From Conidiobolus incongruus B7586 (lineage: Eukaryota): a stretch of 49,292 nt of DNA. The position numbers and the translations under genes are program-made. The DNA is taken from contig JNEM01008690.1 of the NCBI GenBank assembly GCA_000697335.1, forward strand, positions 1 through 49,292. The letters are read 5' to 3'. This document shows positions 1 through 43,399 of this stretch, piece after piece. The stretch's first letter is position 1. Each line of letters begins with the position of its first letter. The notes beneath the pieces were generated by a model. That model worked only from the letters and a program-made list of their open reading frames with translations. It did no database searches and was not told where the DNA came from.

Positions 1-1139
1 ATTCCACATTTTCTGAGCCATCTGAAGGCAATAATGAATTCTCACCAATTACTGGACCTGCTGCTATACGACCTATCTCTGCTTATACTTTAAGAACCTT
101 TCAAGGATCTCCCGAAGTTCCTAGGTCAATTTATGAACAGTCATTAATAGCATCCAGAACCGAAGAAACCATTAATGCCTTGATTGTAAATGGCCAATTG
201 AAGAATTTGGTTGTGTCGGGTAAGGTTTATCTAACTGTTAATCCAGGAACATCTCAAGAACAGCTATCTGAATTATTTATCAATATTCCAAATAATTCTC
301 ATCAACCTAGTATCTACCCCTCGAAATATCTTGAATTATCCTTACAAGACCCATCACAATACATGTTTGACCACAAAAATACTTCTAAGCTCATTGGAAA
401 AGATACATGTATACTCCAATACTTTATCAAAAAACAAGATAATTTTGAATCTATTCTACCAATGGAAGTTTATTCAGTATTTAACAATCTACCTGATTCT
501 AACAATACTCAATTTTCTATATCCATTATTTTTAACCTTCAAGAATCCAAACCACAATATCTTTGGGATCGATTCATTGTGACTGCTGCGATTTTGGATA
601 TTGATAATAAGTCTGAAAGACCACTTATATATTCTGTACCCATGGCCACTTGGAATGCTTCTGAGCAGACTGCAAGTTGGTCAGTGACTACCACTCATCC
701 TCACTTTACCATATTAGGACAGGCTCAAACTAAATCATCATTCCCAATTAGTATAGACTTTTCACTTCGATCAGAATCATCTTGTATTGGCTTTGGAATT
801 TCTGCTGTTGATAAACAAAATCAACCTGTTTCTTCTGAAATATTCATTCAAGGACCCGTCCAAATATCATCAGGCGTGGTGTTAGTTTCACCTCAAGAAT
901 TTGATCTTAATCAATTGTCGAAATCTAATCAAATTTCATCTCTAACATCTAGTCCCGCTCCAGTTACCGCAAATGGATTATCACAGGAACATGAAACAAA
1001 CTCTACATGTTCGAATAACCAGGGAAAAGAAAACAATGCTGAAACCAAGCAACAAGCTGACCAGATTGAAACATCTCCAGAACAAACTAATGCATCTCCT
1101 GAGGAAACTGATATCAAAGAAACCACCTCCAATAATTAA
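1..1139 (+). CDS. 5'-partial muniscin (Syp1/FCHO-like) protein, C-terminal mu-homology domain plus low-complexity tail
   Basis: The frame is open from position 3 to TAA at 1137-1139. LIASRTEETINALIVNGQLKNLVVSGKVYL resembles the start of the muniscin muHD (S..ETVNA.F.NG......V.GE..L). A WN.....SW segment occurs later. Confidence 0.6.
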   Translation, partial: STFSEPSEGNNEFSPITGPAAIRPISAYTLRTFQGSPEVPRSIYEQSLIASRTEETINALIVNGQLKNLVVSGKVYLTVNPGTSQEQLSELFINIPNNSHQPSIYPSKYLELSLQDPSQYMFDHKNTSKLIGKDTCILQYFIKKQDNFESILPMEVYSVFNNLPDSNNTQFSISIIFNLQESKPQYLWDRFIVTAAILDIDNKSERPLIYSVPMATWNASEQTASWSVTTTHPHFTILGQAQTKSSFPISIDFSLRSESSCIGFGISAVDKQNQPVSSEIFIQGPVQISSGVVLVSPQEFDLNQLSKSNQISSLTSSPAPVTANGLSQEHETNSTCSNNQGKENNAETKQQADQIETSPEQTNASPEETDIKETTSNN

Positions 1140-2867: not shown

Positions 2868-3722
2868 ATGAGACTATTTAACCAAAAGGAGAAAGAAGTG
2901 GAAAAGAAGGCTCAGTCAGTGAAGGATGCATCGCTAACTGATCTCGAGAAGGGAGGAATCAGTATGGCAATGATCCCTATTGACGAGGAATTATTCGCTG
3001 TAGAGCCTCAAATTGAAGAACGCGTGAGTTGGAGGATGAAGGCACGTGATTTTATTTGCTCGCCGAGGTTTCAATATACGATGTCTGGTTTAGTCGTTCT
3101 GAATTTAGCACTGAGTATCGGAGAATTCGTTATTAGTATTTTTACGGCTAAGGGTACTGTGAAAGAAGATAATGTAGACGAAATCGAGTTTGCTATATTA
3201 TGTACCAATTTAAGTTTATTGAGTTTTTTCGTTTTGGAAGTTATTGTTCGTGCTGGTCTTATAGGTTTTAAAATCTATTTCAAAGATGGTTGGAACATAC
3301 TGGATTTCTTCATAGTGTCGGTATCTTGTTTGATCGAAGCTATGTACCTGGAGAACAGTTTCAAAGAATTGCAAAAGATTGTAACTGTTGCTATGGCTTT
3401 TCGTTTGTGGAACGCACTCCGTATTGTTCACTTGATCAGTCGTACTCTCGATAATCAGGAACAGGCGAGATTAGACGCTGCAAAAGATCAAAATAAAAAA
3501 CTACAGAATGAATTGTCTGAGATTCAGCGCAAGAACGAGCGTTTAAAGAAGGAGAGAGATAGACATCTCAGCAAAACCAAGAAGATGGAAAGAGAGTTGG
3601 AAATCATTCAAATCAAAACGATTAACTCGTTTCAGCAGTCTTGGCAGAAGATTGTACCACTGACAAGTACAGTTCAAATTAAATCAGGCTTAGTCAAAGA
3701 TAAATCAATTACAAAAAAATAA
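2868..3722 (+). CDS. HVCN1: Hv1-like voltage-sensor-domain protein (S1-S4 plus C-terminal coiled coil, no pore domain), intronless, with atypical selectivity residues
   Basis: S1 is LVVLNLALSIGE, S2 is LSFFVLEV, S3 is WNILDFFIVSVSCLIE and S4 is FRLWNALRIVH. A heptad-rich coiled coil follows. This is the Hv1 architecture. Confidence 0.82.
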   Translation: MRLFNQKEKEVEKKAQSVKDASLTDLEKGGISMAMIPIDEELFAVEPQIEERVSWRMKARDFICSPRFQYTMSGLVVLNLALSIGEFVISIFTAKGTVKEDNVDEIEFAILCTNLSLLSFFVLEVIVRAGLIGFKIYFKDGWNILDFFIVSVSCLIEAMYLENSFKELQKIVTVAMAFRLWNALRIVHLISRTLDNQEQARLDAAKDQNKKLQNELSEIQRKNERLKKERDRHLSKTKKMERELEIIQIKTINSFQQSWQKIVPLTSTVQIKSGLVKDKSITKK

Positions 3723-3775
3723 AAATCAATTAATGAATATGAATTAAATAATGTCCACTGAACATAGTGAATTTA

Positions 3776-6700
3776 TTAGTGAGAAAAATTGGATGTAATA
3801 GTTTTCGTTAAAGGATCATATGTGGATGCAATAGACAGTATGATATTGATATCCGAGGATTGAACCCTAATAAAAATTAGTATAGTTATCATTTAAATAT
3901 CATTGATATGGATCTACCCTATAAAAGAAGCCAATGTAGTATTATCCCAAGTAGAGGCATCTTGGTTCTCTCTAAGTACTGACGATAATAATATACTCTT
4001 ATAATACAACTGTCTCAATCGATCTTCCAAATATTGAACAACCTAACATCAACAATAAGTATTAAATTGAATCAATATCACTCACTTATACTCACAGATT
4101 CTGAAGGCATTCCAAATTGCGACAATTGATGGGTTTCCTGTAAAGTTTCTTGAACGTGATCAGATGGAATTGATCTGAGTATAGATACTGATCTTCCAGG
4201 AGCTTGTCCAAATGATTGATTATCACTAAATATATATATATTAATATCATTAATTTATCTGAATAATAACATATTACTTTGATTGGAAGCTATCATACTC
4301 GATTAAATGTGTTTGCCTAACCAATCATTATTATTTATAACAAAGCTATTTTAGTTGTTTAAAGTTACCAAGTATTCGTATCAGCAACGATACATACAGC
4401 TTTTTTAACTGGCTCGTCATAAGAAAACTAAATAATCATTATTAATTATAAATACTATATAAACATAATATTAGAGTTACTTGAACAGAAGTTTTTAAAT
4501 CATTCTCTAAACTATCAATAAAATCGAATCGAGGTACACCCAACAATACGAAATCAGGCTTATAATGATTACAATAACTCGACATGAGTGATCTTCCATA
4601 AGATTTAGTATACAAAAACTGAGCGTCGGGAGTAGTTGCTAGTTCTTCACTCTCCGCCTGTTGTGATGGTTTGTTGTTTAAATTGGGTGGAAATATTTCC
4701 ACCAATTGGCCTCTATAAATTATCATTAGTGAATTGGTATATATATTTAATTATAAAAAAAATTACTGAGGTAGTGTAAATTCGATAAAATCTGAGCCAT
4801 TTGTAAAATTATCGGATGTTGGTGACGTCGTTTTAACCTCATCGACTTGATCTAATATTAAAAAATTGATAAACATCTAATAAATTACTAATAAAGTACA
4901 AATAAAATTACTAGATCTAGGTTCAGTATCCCTAATCATATTACTTATACTCTGATTATTTTCGGAATTCTCATTATTATTCAAATCTTCTTGAGGATTG
5001 GACAGATTAGACAATTCCAAACCCTTTGTGGACGAATTGGAAGTGGTAGACTTTTTACTGGATATAATGCTGGAGTCTTTATAGCCCACAGGTTTTAAAT
5101 TTTTGAAATCTTCGATGGACCACTTTTCTGAATTGAGTACGATTTCGTTGCAGCGGATAAAATATGTGAGGATGAATAAAATCCGTGATACGAGATCGGA
5201 ATCAGATCCTACAATGATTGTTCTACTGACTTGGGAGATACAACCTACATTTCCATATAAATCGCTGAGTTGAGCCCACAAAGGATTGTAAGACAGTTTC
5301 GTCTTGAGATCTTCTGTTTTATAAGAATTCGCAGGCACTACTGGCACCCATGACAAGTGATGACTCAAAACGTTGGAAATGAGTCCAGATATAAAATAAT
5401 TAGTTTTTTTGGTATCATAATTGGAGATAAGATAGGATAATTCTTTAATCAAAGAATCTGTATATGTAGTGCGATTTTGAGGTAGTGATAAGATATTTAA
5501 CCATAGAGGCTCTTGAATTCTTGGTGTCGTATACAAACTGATTAATTCTTCACGAAATATATTTACCTGGTCCAACAAAGTTTGATTGCTCTGCAATTGA
5601 AAAGCATCTAAAAATACAGTTGCTGGCAAAGACGATGAAGAATACTTTGAATTAAATATCTATACTCAATCCAATTTAAATAATATAAAAATATCATAGC
5701 AAAATAATCTTACGGAATTGCTGCCCGATACTGTACCAATTGAAGATTTGGATTTGGTTGCAAATTCTCTAGAAATGATTTCTTTTGCTAAGGTGTACAA
5801 TTTGTGAATTTTAATTTCTATCAAACTGTAATGTGAGTGTAAGAAATCGCGAAGGTGGCGATTAGTGCCAATATCGATGACGATACCAATAGAAAACATG
5901 GTATGTCTTGCACGTCGATTTATGTTACCCTAAACTCAATTTAATATTATATAATATAACTGTATACATTTGAATATATTACAAAGTCATCATGCTTGGT
6001 ACTGGGTAAAGTGGTGGGGCTAAAAGCACCATTTTCTAAACTAGTCCTGCCAGCTTTCTTGAGTCTCCTATCCAAGTGAATATTGTGGAATGATGATAAA
6101 GAACTCGCGACAGATGTGGATAAAATGTCGTGAATGTTTGAATCTTCTGAATGGTCCGAGTAGGTAATGTCGCTATTTTTGGATTCATAGGACAATGGAT
6201 CGCCCAAATCCGCTAATGATGAATTCATGTTATTGTCAAGTTTATTATTTATTGGAATGGATCTTATGGATTTGGATAATATTGCTTCAATTTCCGATGT
6301 GGTGAGTGAAAATAATAATGTTAATAGTAGCTGAGGTGCTGGTCCGTTAATTGTATGCAACTTGGTGGTGGTGCCTTTGAATGACATGGGTACTGTTCCA
6401 AACATCATATCTCCAATAGGTCCCAAATTATATCTGCGAGGATTTCTTAAAGGTGACTTTTGACTTGTTGGGAATGTGTTGGAACTATTAATAATTAACA
6501 AAATATTTTCATTAATAGTACATACTTTATTCAATTACCTTATTTCCATTTGAGCAGTATCACTAGATTTAGCATTTTCAATACTTTTGGAAACCTGAGT
6601 TAACTGGTCCGAATCGAATAATGCGGTTTTATTTTGGTCACCAGGATCTTGACATATTAAGACTCTAATATCTTGATGTTTAAAATTTGGAACACACCAC

Positions 6701-10099: not shown

Positions 10100-10350
10100 A
10101 GGACCTTAGTAAGTCCTTAAACTGCTAACACCATTCCATACCCCATAATACCATTTACAATCCCCTCCCACTCTTGAGTATACTGTTATTACTTTGTCCC
10201 CAATAACTCCCAATACAAACAAAACCCTTAACTCTGGAACCGTATCTTTGGATGGATCTCACAAGTTACGGATCAATATATTCTGCAAAATATCGCTTTT
10301 ATTCGTCCTTAGGTCTAATAAAAATCTTCTTCATTCATTCAATAAAAAAA
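10100..10350 (+). mobile_element. Probable degenerate non-LTR retrotransposon 3' fragment
   Basis: The strand is C-rich. With one frameshift it reads TLEYTVIT/CPNNS, similar to the TLEHxxxxCP end of LINE zinc knuckles. It ends in AATAAAAAAA at 10341-10350. Confidence 0.3.
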
Positions 10351-11006
10351 CAGTAATTCAAGCATCTTCGCCGACAGCTCAGCAGTTCATAGACGATACA
10401 GCAACGGAGCTTCCGGTAGACATATGGCCCGTCGAACTCTCCGTAAATTACGGTATTTTAAAGCATCCAAGTATTGCATTGTTGTACTTCCACCAGCGTC
10501 AGAATCGAGTATTCGAAGATGAAATTGAATTTAGAATATACACCGTTTTCGCATTGATAGTGTACCGCCACGACGCTGAGGCAAGGACCATGCTGGATGA
10601 GTATCAGGACATTGACTTAACCCCACTGACATGGTTCCGTCTGGAGGACTTCCCTGCACCATCGCGTGACATGTGTGCGCTTCTACATCAAAGGCACAAT
10701 GGCGATTCCTACTGGGCATACTATATTTCCGGATGATGCATTATTGGCGGATATAGACTAAGCCCTCTTTACTATAGCTCAGACCATGCAGTGATCGCGT
10801 CCAAGTACTCGAGTAAGATATCCAGAGAAGTATCTGCGCCATATGCCCTGGATGTATACTGGGAGACTCATCCCCTGAAATGCCAATTTGTATCCAAGTT
10901 CAAGAGCAATAATAAGGAGGGTGCCGCGTTTGAATCTTTGTTTCCAGCTACTCCCACCCCGGATGATCTGGAACATATAGAGTTATTGCTTCGTCTCGAG
11001 ATTTAA
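10351..11006 (+). pseudogene. GC-richer intronless reading frame of unknown function interrupted by one in-frame TGA
   Basis: ORFs 10194-10736 and 10791-11006 share a frame. The 54 nt between them are open (CIIGGYRLSPLYYSSDHA), so TGA 10734-10736 is the only stop. Confidence 0.45.
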
Positions 11007-33262: not shown

Positions 33263-36200
33263 CTAATCCGAATCAACCTCCACATATTTCATAGGAGAGT
33301 GGGATGTGGTTTTGGATTTGCGAGCTGATGGCCTAAATTAAAGATTAATAATCGACGAAATAATGATTATATGTTAAATGAACTTACGATTTAGCATCCG
33401 AATCGTGTGGAAGGGACCTCTTACCAGCCCTAGGCGACTTGGGCGATTTGGGAGATCTTGGCGATCTTGGAGATTTCGGAGACCTTGGAGAACGAGGCGA
33501 GCGGGGGGATTTGGGTGCCAAACTAAAATCACCTGGGAATTCCTTGGGATCTAGTGGGGGTGCCATGACACGCGTCTGGTCAGTTGGGAAGAACTCTTGG
33601 GGTAAGAAACTATGGTTAGCAATTGTGGACATCTTGGCTGGATTGGTAAGATGTCTATACATGTCGGCAGGTAGAGAAATGGGTCCTGTGTAAGGCTGAA
33701 TGAGCCAGTGGGAAGTGAGTTTGAAATGTTTAATAGTATACTGCATCAAATCACTTAATGCGTAGATGCAGTCGGATCGTTCTGGACTGTTCAAATCGTA
33801 GGTGTTCTTCAATCTGGAAATACATTCAAAGATGTATGAAATATTATCAGGTGTGGCAATAATTTCTAGGAAGAATTCCAAATAGCGTTGAAACTGTAGT
33901 AAATCTTCACCATCTCTGGAGAAATCTGGATGATGGGCAAGAAGGTAAATGAGACGAGGTGTAGTGGATTCCAAGTGATGAGCGACACGGTTTTGAGCCT
34001 TATTCCTATCAAGTTGTCTCTTGAGAGCGACTGAAACGGTATCGCGCAATTCAATTTCAGGATCGTGAGCTGTTAAGAATAGAATGGAGGCATACTTGGG
34101 GTTGAGACTTTGAATGCTCAAGTATTTAATCAACTTCGTGACGAAGCCTTGACGTACTTCGAAAATTTCATCTTGCATAAAATAGGACAATTTGGTGAAT
34201 TGAAGGGGTGCAATATAGGATTGGAGATGCGATTTACATGCAAGTTTGACAATGGAGTTAATGGCAGCTAATCTCAAGTTGGCTCTGAATGATTTGGGCA
34301 TTTCATCAGTAAGAGCACCTTCTTTGTCTAAGATATCCCACAATAAATTCAAAACGGGTTTACAGAGAGCCACCTTAATGTCATCATCAGCAAATGACAA
34401 TGCTCTGTTCACCAAGACTTTCAAACCTAAGACCTTAGCTTCCAATTCAGAGTCAATTTGATCAAATTCTTCGTAGGAAGAAGAATCATAAGAACTTTTC
34501 AAATTCTTATATAAGAGATCACTCACTACAAACTTGACAAGCTGCTCATAAACATCTTCTAAATCATCGGGTGAATGGATAGCAATCTGTTGAAAAGCTT
34601 TGAGAGCTGAGTTTAAGTATTGAGAGCTGGGTTTCAAATTCTTGACAAGTTGTGAAACCAAATCAGGGACACAAATGAGGTAGTTGGAATTCAAACAAAG
34701 GATACAAGCAGCATATTTGGATTGTAAAACGGTACCCTTAAGACAGAGATCCTTCAATTTCTTAATGGATAAATCATCCAATTTAAGTTCTCTAGGATGA
34801 GATTTGACATGTTTGGCCAAAGCCTTAAGACGGTCAATTTGCTCGGACTTGAACAAGTCGATAGAGGAATCGATCAAGAAACTGGTGAGCAAATTTAAGT
34901 GAACATCAAACAGATTGGGGAACCAATTGGCCAATTGGTCCAATATTTTTTGGGCAGTGCTGGATTTCGTAGCGTCGGTTGCGTTCTTTTTAGATCTGGT
35001 GCTCTTTCCCGACTCGACGATTTCAAATAAAAATGGAAGAATGGTGTGATTGACTAATTTGAGCGAGACAGTATTGAGAATCATCTTGAAAGTATTAACC
35101 AACTCGGAATTCAACTGTTCAATTCGTTTCATTGCCTTTCCATAACAATCTACAATAGTATCATAATCAGAAGTAAAGCTAATAACCTTCAAAAAGAGTT
35201 CATTCAATCTCTTATCGGGAGATTGAGAATACTTTACCAAGTTACTATAATGTATAGTTGTATCATTATACTTTTCTACTAAGAGTTTAGCTGATCCAAG
35301 GATAGATTTCTCAATATCTTCAGTGGTATTGGTCTTAGAACTCCAAGCTCTTTGCTCATTAATATTGGTGATATACCTGTGGAAATGTTTAATAGCGATG
35401 GATTGTGTCTTCATCATGGAGTAGAATGCGGTGAGTCCTTTGTCATTCAAGTATGAGCATACGTTCAATATCCTTTGAGTACGATCCGATGCATTGCGAT
35501 CAGAAGAGAATACCTTCTCTCTCAAAACTTGAGCGGCGTGATAGTCACCATCATATACATAGAAAAGTCCTAAAATAGCATTGGGTAATTTGGAAAATTT
35601 GGAAATGGCTTGAGGATCTCCATAAACGATATCATGGTAAGCTTTATCATAGAGATCTGATAATGTGTTGAGAGCTGCAATTCTAGTCTCAAGCTAATCA
35701 AATAATAAGCATATAAACTAAAGTATATATTTATATAGTTACCTTTTTATCTTTGCAACGAAGAGATAAACCTTCAAGTAATTTGGGATCAACCAATTGT
35801 TTGACCAAGTCGTAGCCGATGAGCCCAATAACTTTACAAACGGCAGTTCTGACCTTGTCATCGGGATCTTGAACCTTGGTAATTAAACCCTCCTGAACTT
35901 GATTGAGGTCACTGCTATTATTCAAGAAAAATGTAATGCTCTGTTCAACCCAAGCAACTCTCACTTGGGAAGTTTTATCATTCATTCTTTGTAACCAAAT
36001 CTTCCACACAGCTCCATAAGTTGATGATAAGTGGCCAGGCTGGGAGAACATGTCACCCAAAGCTCTAGTGGCTAAAGTACGAAGTTCTGTATTATCATAA
36101 GATAACTCTTGTTCTAAGAGAGGAATGACATTGAGCAAGACACTGGGAGCAGCTCTATTAATATTAACAATAATACGGTGAGCAGTTTTGAGATCGATAC

Positions 36201-38625: not shown

Positions 38626-41039
38626 ATGGAATCTAAACCACGTCCCAAACTCTCAGGGAGGAAGAGTAGACAGAATGGAAGGAGTTCAAAGCCTCCTCAA
38701 AATATCCCACCACCGATGCCACCGCCGAGTACTTCAAATACGTCCACTTTAGATCTGGTATCAGAAAGTGCTATGAGTCTAATCAATCCCATATACTCCA
38801 TGATAACGACGGAGGCAAACATAGTAGGCCACGTGCTAAGCGGACTCGGCAGCAGTACCGCAGGAATGCTATTCGGTATGAATTTGGATCTGTTTCGCAA
38901 CCGATTTCGACTGACACAAGGTTCCAATTCGAGACCCGTGCCAGATTTGAGCGTGGACGATATCGACGACGATATTCCTATAAGTGAGAGATCGCAGCCT
39001 ACGTTGCATCAGGGATTTAGGAATCGATTAAGTTTAGCTACGGATTCGAGTGAGAGGATCGAGAATGATTTGGAGAGTTTGTATTCTGAAGGTAGTAAAG
39101 ATCAAACTATTTTAGGTATTATATTATTTAGTAATATATTATAGTTATAAAATCAATTACTAAATTCATATTTAGATCTCACGAACGAGCAAATCAAATC
39201 GCGATTAGATAGGATATCCTATTTAAAGGTAACAATCTAACTCTCATACCATTGAATAATTGAAATAATTCATAAAATAGACGAAATACTCTCACAAAAT
39301 CGAATTAGTAGACCAAGAAATTCATGCGTTAAATCTCAAAAAAGATAAATTATTAAATAAATTAAATAACCTGGTCGAAAAGGAGCGTGAATTGTTGAAT
39401 TTGACAAAATCTGAACATAATAGTATTATATTAATATAAATAATAGGTATTAAAATATTAATATGAATATATTTTAGTACAAAATGATAATTTAAAAGAA
39501 TTGGAAAGTGAAAATATTGAAGTTTCCACTCAGGGTGTCAACGGTAAGGCTAATTTTCATTTCTATCTATTGATTTGTGTCTAATAAATGAATAGAAACA
39601 CAATCTGAAAATCTACCAGAAAGTCAAATTGATGTTGAAACTAATATAAATTTACCACATCTTGAAATAGAAGTAAATCAATCACATGTTGAAAATATTG
39701 ATGTTAAAGAAACCGAAATAATCGAAGCATCTGAGCCAATTGATAAAGAAGATCATACTATTTCAACTGAAATCGACAATAATGAACTTGAAACTGAGCC
39801 TGAAGCTGGAGTCAAACCTGAAGTTGTGGAAAATGTTGAAGATTCCAACGTTACTGAGGAAATTGCCTCTACTGGAGATTTGTCTTTACCTGATGAGCCT
39901 GTAGATACTCCCGTTATTCCTAAGTGGGGATCTTTCTTGAAGGTATAGGCATATCAACGATTTATTCTTATATAATTATTTATAGGTTGAATTTCTAGAG
40001 TTTTGAAGCACATTCCAACCACAGTATTACCACACTGGATATCAATCCCCAAAATCACTACATTGTAACAGGTTCGACAGATGGTTCTATTAAAATGTGG
40101 GACGATAGTACCCAAGAATCCTTAGCCACATTAGTTGGCCAAAAGGGAAGTGTGTACTGTCTCAAGAGTGATCACGGCTTAGTGGTCTCAGGAGGTCAAG
40201 ATTCTAATATTTATATCCACAATATCAACAACATTACATCTGATTCGACATTGGATTTTGTCAATCCTTTAATGACGCTGACTGATCATTCGAGTGCGGT
40301 GACTGCTATCGATTTTAACAAAACAACGTTGGTATCCGGATGTGACAACGGTACTATGATTCACTGGGATTTGGAAACTGGCAAATCGCTATCTGTAATG
40401 GATACGGTTTGGAATATGAATGCTGGACTAGTAAAAGATTTCAAGACAAAATATTGGAAGATTACCAATGGTCGAGGCAGGGATTACGATAGCCTCAATA
40501 CAACGATTGGTAGTTTGATGGTATGGAAACACGCTTTGGCATCCGGTACAGTTGATGGTGTAATCAGAATGTGGGATATACGCACTGGCCAATCCCACAG
40601 ATCCCTAAGTGATCATCTCGGACCCATCACGTCGCTACAGTTTGATCAAACGACAATTGTAAGCAGTAGTTTGGACAAGACTATCCGCATTTGGGATCTC
40701 AGAATGGGTAAAGTGATTGAAAAATTGTCATTGAATTCTCCCGTTCTCAAAGTGCAATTTGACAAACAAATGATCGTAGGTATTGTGGATGAGTATGAAG
40801 CGCCCTACGTCTACAACCGCGTCACATTCCAACCCCAGCAATTGGATAATATTCCCAATATCACGACGATAGACGATAATGAAGCGTTTGTAGCTAAATT
40901 AACAGGAGCTGAAACGACGGAAGAACCAGTACCGACTACTTACTTTAGCTCCAAATTCTCGCATTCCAATTCCATTGAAGGAATGGATTGGCTCGCCGCA
41001 GGTACCCGATCTGGACGAGTAAATATTTGGTCTATTTAA
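38626..41039 (+). CDS. MDV1: Mitochondrial fission adaptor Mdv1/Caf4-like WD40 protein, multi-exon
   Basis: N-terminal extension containing TLHQGF, a coiled-coil exon, and WD40 repeats with ALASGTVDGVIRMWDIRTGQSHRSL..HLGPITSLQFD..IVSSSLDKTIRIWDLRMG. Confidence 0.85.
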
Positions 41040-42088: not shown

Positions 42089-43399
42089 ATGACAATGTCG
42101 AAATTACCAAATAATTTTACAGGTATATAGAGAATACCGATAGTCATATAAATAATATTAAATATTTTATATAGTATTAATTCAAACTAATAATCCTATA
42201 AAAACCAAATTAAAGTTAGATAATCTCAATACTCAGCTAACTCAATTAATATCCGAATCACCACGAAGCACTTGTATAAATTTAAAATTTGAAGATTTAG
42301 ATATTCAATTGTCTAACTTTCCAACTTCACAATTTCTAACCCATTTCCCCAGAGGTGTCTACACTTCAGCACGTACAGTAAGTCCCGGTCGTGTGTTTGA
42401 CTTAGCAAATCATATTGAAAGGATGCACCAAGGTGTGAATAGTATGGAATTTGACCCACGTATCAATTTCGGCCAGTTCAAAGAGTTGGAAAGTCTAAAA
42501 TTCACTATGGTAGAGTTGAGCAGACTGGGTGTATTTTTTTACAAGATGTTCATTCAAGAGGATATTGAACAAAGGTTGAAACTAAGTTATTATCTGACAG
42601 TTGATACAATGAAAAATTTACCACTTTTCGCTTTTCATTGCGATAATTTGTTGATTCCTAAGGTGAACGCTTGCGAAGTAATTAATATTGTGATTTCATT
42701 AGATGTATATTTAATATGCCATTTAATTGTAGGCTGAAGTTCAAATTGGTGCTAGAGTTAATCCCAATACTAAGGATTCTCAATGGGTTTTGTAATATAT
42801 TATAAACTTCTTTGATTTAAGAAATCTTATTCGAGATTTTTAGAGATCGAAGAATAATGGAAGCTAATAAACGCCCCAACTGCAATGAAGTAATTCTATT
42901 GCAACCTGGAACTGGTAGACTCTATGAAGGCTTAAGTTCCAATTTTTTCGTATTGACTGAGAATGATTTGGGGCATTTGGAAATTTGGTCTCCTCCAAGA
43001 GAGGATGTATTAATTGGTACAGTGATGCGATTAGTTGAAAAAATAGTGAATGATGATAAACGATTGACCTGGGTTTATAAGCATCCCAATTTGAATGATA
43101 CTACCAAATGGAGAGGTGCCTTTATTACAAGTAATTATATCGCCTCAATTCAAATATTTTTATTAAATTTTAAAATTTTAGGCACCTCAAGATTAGTTCT
43201 CCCTATTCATACCCTCTATTTCAATAACCACAGTGACCAGTAATTATATTATATTATTTAAATATTTACTTTACTAAAGAATTTTTAATAATTTAGACAA
43301 GCTATTAAGTTCAATGAAATACATCCCGAAATCATAATGCTCAAGTCCAAAGTATTCGATTATGTGATCAAAAACAGTCTCTATGTCGAAGAAATTTGA
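42089..43399 (+). CDS. Class IV (D-amino acid/branched-chain-type) PLP-dependent aminotransferase-like protein, multi-exon
   Basis: Motifs: PRGVYTSART, HIERM, RVNPNTKDSQWV (putative PLP Lys), LYEGLSSNFF, VLIGT, GAFITSTSRLVLPI. Confidence 0.85.

What the first reader, a model, noticed from the sequence alone, without database searches (positions are those of the whole stretch)
2868..3722. Hv1-like channel with Asn at both the selectivity Asp and its partner S4 Arg
Seen: S1 LVVL-N-LALSIGE aligns with human Hv1 LVVL-D112-ALLVLAE (N79, codon AAT 3102-3104). S4 RLW-N-ALR aligns with R205-L-W207-R208-V-A-R211 (N182, codon AAC 3411-3413, at least two substitutions from any Arg codon). The S2 F/E, S3 D, signature Trp and coiled coil are retained and the ORF is intact. 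Established: D112 is required for proton selectivity, neutral substitutions give anion-permeable or non-conducting channels, and D112 is proposed to pair with R208. Inference: loss of both charges looks compensatory. It suggests a VSD-only protein with different function, such as an anion or non-selective conductance, a non-conducting voltage or pH sensor, or a modulatory partner for a canonical Hv.
Basis: partly seen in the sequence, partly recalled or inferred. Interest (0 to 1): 0.8.

Follow-up and report, generated by a model that had tools for sequence, protein, structure and literature searches.

The report
Fungal proton-channel family lacking its filter
This intact gene of a Conidiobolus-type fungus encodes a proton-channel (Hv) relative that lacks both charged residues of the proton filter and belongs to an apparently undescribed, expanded family in insect-killing Entomophthorales fungi, which likely act as non-conducting voltage/pH sensors rather than proton channels.

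Summary
ORF 2868-3722 (284 aa) is intact, with Asn at the Hv selectivity site (N79 = D112) and at the second S4 charge (N182 = R208). Both are kept in the Conidiobolus coronatus orthologue (86% identical) and in a paralogue (52%). Differences from contigs of one sample are 32 synonymous to 3 non-synonymous. The gene belongs to a wider clade: 13 proteins from Conidiobolus, Neoconidiobolus, Entomophthora muscae (6 clusters) and three unnamed records. None of the 8 with S1 has the acid, and 12 of 13 lack the R2 charge. The charge-transfer centre, R1, R3, a fixed-length coiled coil and a new SWxxxVP motif are conserved. C. coronatus also has a normal Hv (Asp; RxWKxxR), so this is an extra paralogue family. 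Most likely (0.5) it is a dimeric, TMEM266-like non-conducting voltage/pH sensor. Anion conduction is less likely, because the unpaired Arg thought to cause it is also gone. Not found in the literature searched; no function or expression data.

The parts
2868..3722 (+). Single-ORF gene, 284-aa Hv-related voltage-sensor-only protein (P0001)
   Evidence: Pfam Ion_trans residues 68-193, E 4e-11; GC 38% against 15% in the 500 bases upstream
3063..3152 (+). S1 helix (res 66-95) with N79 at the D112 site, S83 at the V116 site and E86 at the E119 site
   Evidence: model; alignments; site table
3102..3104 (+). N79 (AAT), selectivity-filter position
3165..3263 (+). S2 helix (res 100-132): N114 (S143 site), F121 (F150), E124 (E153), R128
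3288..3350 (+). S3 helix (res 141-161): WNxxD146 (D174) and E157 (D185 site)
3363..3443 (+). S4 helix with R179-L-W181-N182-A-L-R185-x-x-H188 (RxWNxxRxxH)
3411..3413 (+). N182 (AAC), R2/R208 position
3453..3632 (+). About 60-residue coiled coil continuous with S4; family-conserved E198 and N223 (13 and 12 of 13)
   Evidence: one helix 166-262 at pLDDT above 90 over most of it; 3.5-residue hydrophobic period
3639..3659 (+). Family-specific SWxxxVP motif (S258-P264), its Trp 80 residues after R1
   Evidence: W259 and P264 invariant in 13 of 13; spacing

Best explanation
This is an intact member of an Entomophthorales family of Hv-related, voltage-sensor-only proteins that lack the Asp/Arg proton filter and likely work as dimeric, non-conducting voltage/pH sensors. 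Shown: loss of the S1 acid and of the R2 charge, with the charge-transfer centre (F121, E124, D146), R1 and R3 kept; strong constraint; coexistence with a canonical Hv in C. coronatus; S4 running into a coiled coil of fixed length that ends in SWxxxVP. Inferred: S4 still moves with voltage and pH gradient using two charges; the neutral constriction passes few or no protons; two subunits pair through the coiled coil; S4 movement is relayed along the helix to a cytoplasmic partner that binds the SWxxxVP motif. The partner and the cellular role are unknown.
For: Site table of 13 family against 40 canonical Hv proteins. S1 site: N4/Y3/H1 (5 lack S1) against D39/E1. R2: non-basic in 12 of 13 against R35/K5. 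E153, D174 and R1 equivalents 13 of 13; F150 and R3 equivalents 12 of 13. No acid was moved to the 116 site (S6/A1/T1), the one rescue position in PMC3840923. Bulky Tyr at both sites in two members fits a plugged path better than a selected pore. The family carries residues typical of non-conducting sensors: S1 Asn as in 18 of 26 pore-channel sensors, and WNxxD in S3. In Ciona Hv1 the same D-to-N change gives robust gating currents with little or no proton current (PMC10779229). R208N gave no current in human Hv1 in oocytes (PMC4969798). TMEM266 is a precedent for a non-conducting Hv relative (PMC6392501). Purifying selection: 32 synonymous to 3 non-synonymous differences, pN/pS 0.024. S4 is 22 of 25 identical to a paralogue that is 52% identical overall. 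The R1-to-motif distance is exactly 80 residues in 12 of the 13 proteins where the pattern matched, and alignment A2 is gap-free there in 12 of 13 rows.
Against: No recording, localisation or partner exists for any member. Human D112N does conduct (Cl-) in mammalian cells and Ciona R258N still gave current, so single-mutant results depend on species and system. No double mutant at these two sites turned up in the passages read. The outer vestibule is more polar than in canonical Hv (116 site S/T in 7 of 8, 143 site N in 8 of 12), which could hold water and pass ions. With two S4 charges, voltage sensing would be weak. The signature Trp is kept in only 6 of 13 members, and 5 of 13 models lack S1, so members may differ in function.
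Confidence: 0.5

Rival explanations
1. It is a channel with a new permeant. The neutral polar constriction (N79, S83, N114, N182) forms a water-filled path for small ions of either sign, anions, or water, gated by the remaining R1 and R3.
For: The 116 site is S/T in 7 of 8 family members against hydrophobic residues in 39 of 40 canonical Hv, and the 143 site is N in 8 of 12. Ser or Asn at 112 or 116 makes human Hv1 Cl- permeable (PMC3840923). N79 and N182 are identical in paralogues 52% apart.
Against: The same paper ascribes anion selectivity to the excess charge of unpaired R208, which is neutralised here. Other members put Tyr at one or both sites.
Confidence: 0.2
2. It is a silent subunit that heterodimerises with the fungus's canonical Hv through the coiled coil and shifts its gating.
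For: C. coronatus has a canonical Hv (KXN73556.1) beside two N/N paralogues. Hv gating is cooperative in dimers (PMC10377628).
Against: The family's coiled coil and end motif have no match in canonical Hv: the C-terminal profile hit 21 proteins, all family members, among all proteins held. Six E. muscae clusters are many for one partner. TMEM266 did not alter co-expressed Hv1.
Confidence: 0.12
3. It is still a proton channel, using another carboxylate (E86, E157) or H188 with the remaining Arg residues as the filter.
For: E86, E157, W181 and H188 are kept in the Conidiobolus proteins. UniRef labels both C. coronatus paralogues 'Voltage-gated hydrogen channel 1' (the basis of that label was not shown). 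Ciona D160N passes a very small current at a 2-unit pH gradient.
Against: D185 does not preserve selectivity when D112 is neutralised, and Asp at 117 or 118 did not rescue. E86 and H188 vary across the family.
Confidence: 0.1
4. It is a membrane-anchored coiled-coil scaffold whose sensor domain is only a folded anchor and no longer responds to voltage.
For: Five of 13 family models lack S1 yet keep the coiled coil and motif. The family is fast-evolving (long branches).
Against: R1, E153 and D174 equivalents are invariant and R3 and F150 nearly so at 19-29% identity to P0001. The missing S1 may be a gene-model fault (not checked).
Confidence: 0.08

Closest known systems
Hv1/HVCN1 voltage-gated proton channels (human, mouse 3WKV; fungal SlHv1 and AoHv1; C. 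coronatus KXN73556.1)
   Same: Four-helix sensor with no pore domain, S0 helix, E119/F150/E153/D174/D185 equivalents, R1, Trp, R3, and a coiled coil straight after S4. Groups with Hv against pore-channel sensors at 100/100. His three after R3 as in protist and plant Hv.
   Different: No S1 acid and no R2 charge. Polar residues at the 116 and 143 sites. WNxxD in S3. A fixed-length coiled coil ending in SWxxxVP. Several paralogues per species, where the review reports one Hv per fungal species. Only 23% identical to the canonical Hv of C. coronatus.
TMEM266 (HVRP1, C15orf27)
   Same: Hv relative with a coiled coil that gives no proton current and has a working S4. Appears in the Atlas look-alikes at 0.91.
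   Different: Animal protein of about 470 aa or more. It keeps R2 (recalled, not from a call). No TMEM266 sequence was held, so kinship was not tested. The fungal family is probably a separate origin.
Ci-VSP / TPTE voltage sensor
   Same: Best structural match of the model: Z 14.6, rmsd 2.8 A over 129 residues; Foldseek rank 1, E 3e-3. A non-conducting sensor that relays S4 motion to a cytoplasmic effector.
   Different: No phosphatase domain here. S4 has the Hv-type RxW and only two basic residues in the R1-R3 motif.
Unconventional Hv (Aplysia AcHv3, stick-insect EtHv1, rotifer ArHv2)
   Same: Natural departures from the Hv signature in extra paralogues.
   Different: AcHv3 keeps the S1 Asp and R2 (it lacks R1), EtHv1 has Glu in S1, and all three conduct protons.

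Membership tests
Hv (voltage-gated proton channel) | Four membrane helices S1-S4, no pore domain | tested here: met
   Model pLDDT 82 with four helices; Pfam match covers profile positions 4-112 of 241 only; VSD fold
Hv (voltage-gated proton channel) | Asp or Glu selectivity residue in mid-S1 (criterion b in PMC10911540) | tested here: not met
   N79; no acid between residues 72 and 85
Hv (voltage-gated proton channel) | Conserved S4 tryptophan | tested here: met
   W181; kept in 6 of 13 family members only
Hv (voltage-gated proton channel) | RxWRxxR/K motif with a basic R2 | tested here: not met
   RxWNxxR. The looser criterion of at least two basic residues around the Trp is met.
Hv (voltage-gated proton channel) | C-terminal coiled coil after S4 | tested here: met
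   dimer formation itself not tested
Hv (voltage-gated proton channel) | Proton-selective, voltage- and pH-gated current | not testable with these tools
   needs electrophysiology
Hv lineage by descent | Groups with Hv rather than with pore-channel sensors | tested here: met
   100/100 branch; joining with two pore-channel domain-IV sensors rejected, p-AU 0.007. No VSP or TMEM266 rows were in the tree.
Hv lineage by descent | Derived from the fungus's own canonical Hv by duplication | tested here: inconclusive
   Not rejected, p-AU 0.49; the best tree puts the family outside the sampled Hv with weak support, 77/82; no closer identity to fungal Hv
TMEM266 | Orthology to animal TMEM266 | not tested
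Nav/Cav/TPC pore channels | S5-S6 pore domain after the sensor | tested here: not met
   S4 runs into a hydrophilic coiled coil and the ORF stops at 3722; relatives end the same way
Voltage-sensing phosphatase | PTEN-like phosphatase domain after S4 | tested here: not met
   no such Pfam match; 284 aa in all

The most novel reading that the evidence does not exclude
Entomophthoralean fungi have turned an Hv proton channel into an expanded family of pore-less voltage/pH receptors. S4 motion is passed down a rigid coiled coil of fixed length to a cytoplasmic effector docked on the SWxxxVP motif: a fungal voltage-signalling module with no enzyme or pore of its own, arisen independently of animal TMEM266.
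Probability: 0.35. Interest if true: 0.82.

Novelty: new variant of a known kind. Interest (0 to 1): 0.62.

Why it matters
The 2023 Hv review calls R2 fully conserved, knows only Asp-to-Glu as a tested natural filter variant and reports one Hv per fungal species (PMC10377628). This family departs from all three statements. It gives a natural, selected double-neutral version of the D112-R208 pair, so the disputed filter mechanism (D112 with R208 or with R211) can be tested in a stable protein with single and double revertants. If the proteins are non-conducting sensors, they would be a second case beside TMEM266, with a short conserved tail motif that makes the partner findable. The many paralogues in Entomophthora muscae suggest a lineage-specific role for electrical or pH signalling.

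Tried and rejected
Sequence error or pseudogene: rejected. Fragment of a Nav/Cav channel: rejected; whole-protein PDB hits to Nav/Cav come from summing four repeats, and the best single-domain scores favour Hv (tree). A relocated S1 acid: none found. Word-indexed protein searches were weak: 2 hits of 860 candidates, 2 of 7996 and 4 of 4650; the last added only a pore channel (P0163). The metagenome scan returned 80 loci; none showed an Hv-type S4 in the matched frame in a motif scan, and 21 read in detail were pore channels. No whole genome is held, so a canonical Hv could not be sought in the window's own organism. No RNA holder was listed, which says nothing on expression. Runs X5-X7 laid nothing at 80%. 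Gene ids of family members were not in the supplements of PMC11105155 or PMC12262267. Hv structures 3WKV and 5OQK were not among the 50 rows shown by either fold search of the good model; this does not exclude them. No earlier finding matched by sequence.

Full report
Observation. The + strand ORF 2868-3722 encodes 284 aa with no internal stop; the nearest upstream in-frame stop is at 2853. N79 is AAT (3102-3104) and N182 is AAC (3411-3413). HMMER aligns S1 with the mouse Hv1 chimera 3WKV, placing N79 on the Asp of LVVLDALLVLAE (a weak hit on this 83-residue piece, but E 1e-9 for the whole protein). A profile comparison of 13 family proteins with 30 canonical Hv proteins gives probability 99.7 over 190 columns and places N79 on the Asp and N182 on R2. 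Human residue numbers were counted by eye on the human sequence printed in the supplement of PMC10377628.

Not an error, not a relic. Contigs from four runs of one sample (possibly the window's source) show two sequence types at about equal depth. The variant contigs over the two codons carry 12 and 14 differences, all listed, none in either codon. Of 40 difference rows shown (11 more were not shown), 35 lie in the ORF: 32 synonymous and 3 conservative non-synonymous, pN/pS 0.024, binomial p 2e-19. Whether the second type is an allele or a duplicate is not known. Public relatives are the Conidiobolus coronatus proteins KXN71299.1 (86% identical) and KXN69225.1 (52%); both have GLVVLNL and FRLWNALRIVH. 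The window is AT-rich, and 9 of 14 other ORFs scanned match eukaryotic housekeeping families unrelated to channels. The organism is thus a Conidiobolus-type entomophthoralean fungus, judged from this one gene's relatives.

A family, not a single odd gene. The exhaustive HMMER search gave 725 hits at E up to 0.001; only the best 150 were listed and examined. Of 58 proteins under 700 aa (five Conidiobolus N/N proteins plus 53 hits), 10 hits form a non-canonical group with the query, 40 are canonical Hv, two (P0079, P0118) look like pore-channel sensors and one (P0143) is a separate oddity. Seven of the 10 are named: six clusters from Entomophthora muscae and one from Neoconidiobolus thromboides; three are unnamed. 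In 13 family rows (near-duplicates P0004 and P0005 dropped) the D112 site is N4, Y3, H1, with 5 rows lacking S1, against D39/E1 in the 40 canonical rows. R2 is N3, S4, Y4, T1, R1, against R35/K5. Invariant in the family are E124, R128, G133, N143, D146, R179, E198, W259 and P264; F121, R185 and N223 are nearly so. The tail is a coiled coil with a 3.5-residue period that ends in SWxxxVP. The motif's Trp lies 80 residues after R1 in 12 of 15 proteins tested (one at 90; the pattern failed on two). A profile of this tail hit 21 proteins, all family members, among all proteins held. An Asn at a core position (N223) is a classic mark of parallel two-stranded coiled coils (recalled, not from a call).

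A canonical Hv is present too. C. coronatus KXN73556.1 has the S1 Asp and RLWKFVRIIH, and Basidiobolus ORX92032.1 likewise has Asp and Lys. So the N/N genes are extra paralogues, and N182 is one base change from the Lys these fungi use at R2. I could not check the window's own genome.

Origin. A tree of 76 sensor domains used 13 family rows, 37 Hv rows (36 of the 40 canonical plus P0143) and 26 pore-channel sensors (four each from 6 of 86 long channels, plus two). It has 135 columns, with the two trait columns removed. The family is one clade (100/97) and sits with Hv against pore channels (100/100) (the quick tree agrees). Joining it to two pore-channel domain-IV sensors is rejected (p-AU 0.007). 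Joining it to the Conidiobolus and Basidiobolus canonical Hv is not rejected (p-AU 0.49), but the best tree puts it outside the sampled Hv at weak support (77/82), and pairwise identity shows no special closeness to fungal Hv. Branches are long and columns few, and no VSP or TMEM266 rows were available. Against a simple 'loss' story, Asn at this S1 site is the common residue of pore-channel sensors (18 of 26; NavMs), so reversion and retention cannot be told apart here. The deep-alignment model (51 sequences, pLDDT 82) has S0-S4 and one long S4-coiled-coil helix; its best structural match is the Ci-VSP sensor (Z 14.6, rmsd 2.8, 129 residues), with many helical bundles close behind.

Mechanism. 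Published single mutants frame the options. Human D112N passes Cl-, Ciona D160N gives no current in oocytes, and human R208N gave no current in oocytes while Ciona R258N did (PMC4969798). Ciona D160N monomers show robust gating currents and only a very small ionic current at a 2-unit pH gradient (PMC10779229). Anion selectivity of neutral D112 mutants is ascribed to the excess positive charge of unpaired R208, and only position 116 could replace 112 (PMC3840923). Here R2 is neutral as well and position 116 is Ser, so neither a relocated filter nor the anion mechanism is in place. What the family keeps is the gating machinery and the tail; what it lets vary is the filter, including Tyr/Tyr. I therefore favour a dimeric non-conducting voltage/pH sensor that signals through the coiled coil (0.5). 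Rivals are a channel with a new permeant (0.2, helped by the polar 116 and 143 sites), a silent partner of the canonical Hv (0.12), a proton channel by another route (0.1) and a scaffold (0.08). All functional steps are inferred; none was measured. 'Compensation' is plausible but not clean: 7 of 8 members with both sites are doubly neutral, and one is Tyr/Arg.

Literature. Searches found no description of this family; two searches listed no paper whose passages, as far as read, report a double neutral mutant at these two sites. The library lacks most subscription journals. Seen: PMC10377628 (passages, section 18, section 19 part 1 of 2, supplement parts 1, 4 and 5 of 8, and a term search of the whole supplement with no Conidiobolus, Entomophthora or RLWN); PMC7910559 (passages, section 6, term search of supplements with one picture file unread, so its fungal tree and alignment were not seen and could include these fungi); PMC4969798, PMC3840923, PMC10911540, PMC6392501, PMC10779229, PMC8778642 and PMC12387763 (passages); PMC13530225 (abstract and outline); PMC11105155 and PMC12262267 (supplement term search only). 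By eye, two animal entries in the review's supplement (Branchiostoma XM_019764911, Saccoglossus XM_006812030) also lack an S1 Asp, so filterless Hv-like paralogues are not unique to fungi; both keep a basic R2.

Verdict. It fails two defining Hv features, so it is not filed as a proton channel; it is an Hv-lineage variant that probably works like TMEM266 or a VSP sensor. New variant of a known kind, interest 0.62.

Noticed in passing
proteins P0008, P0031/P0162, P0082, P0088, P0145: Canonical fungal Hv proteins from Basidiobolus, C. coronatus, Mycena, Fistulina and Meredithblackwellia have Lys at R2 (RxWKxxRxxH), unlike the RxWRxxK of the characterised fungal Hv and the review's statement that R2 is fully conserved.
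   Followed up: partly
protein P0143 (unnamed record): A separate Hv-like protein with Asn at the S1 site and Leu for the signature Trp but R2 kept; it does not join the family in the tree, so it may be an independent loss.
   Followed up: partly
proteins P0007, P0019, P0067, P0102, P0142: Five family models begin at S2 and lack S1: truncated gene models or real three-helix forms. A 179-aa unnamed Atlas cluster, commonest phylum Zoopagomycota, scored 0.82-0.84 and may be these; lead only.
   Followed up: no
window 2948-3866: Two sequence types about 6-7% apart at near-equal depth in one sample: heterozygous or hybrid genome, or a duplicated region.
   Followed up: partly
window 33384-35525 (-): The Pds5 ORF ends in a run of SPR/SPK repeats, which look like multiple proline-directed kinase sites.
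   Followed up: no
window 4877-47495: Neighbours match FNIP, NIF phosphatase, Tom22, WD40, cytidylyltransferase-like, Pds5, aminotransferase IV and chromo/pre-SET/SET families; no link to the channel gene is apparent. No tRNA genes.
   Followed up: partly
window 180-1139, 10194-10736, 38626-39144, 42309-42737: Four ORFs or exons of 142-319 aa with no Pfam match at E 0.001.
   Followed up: no
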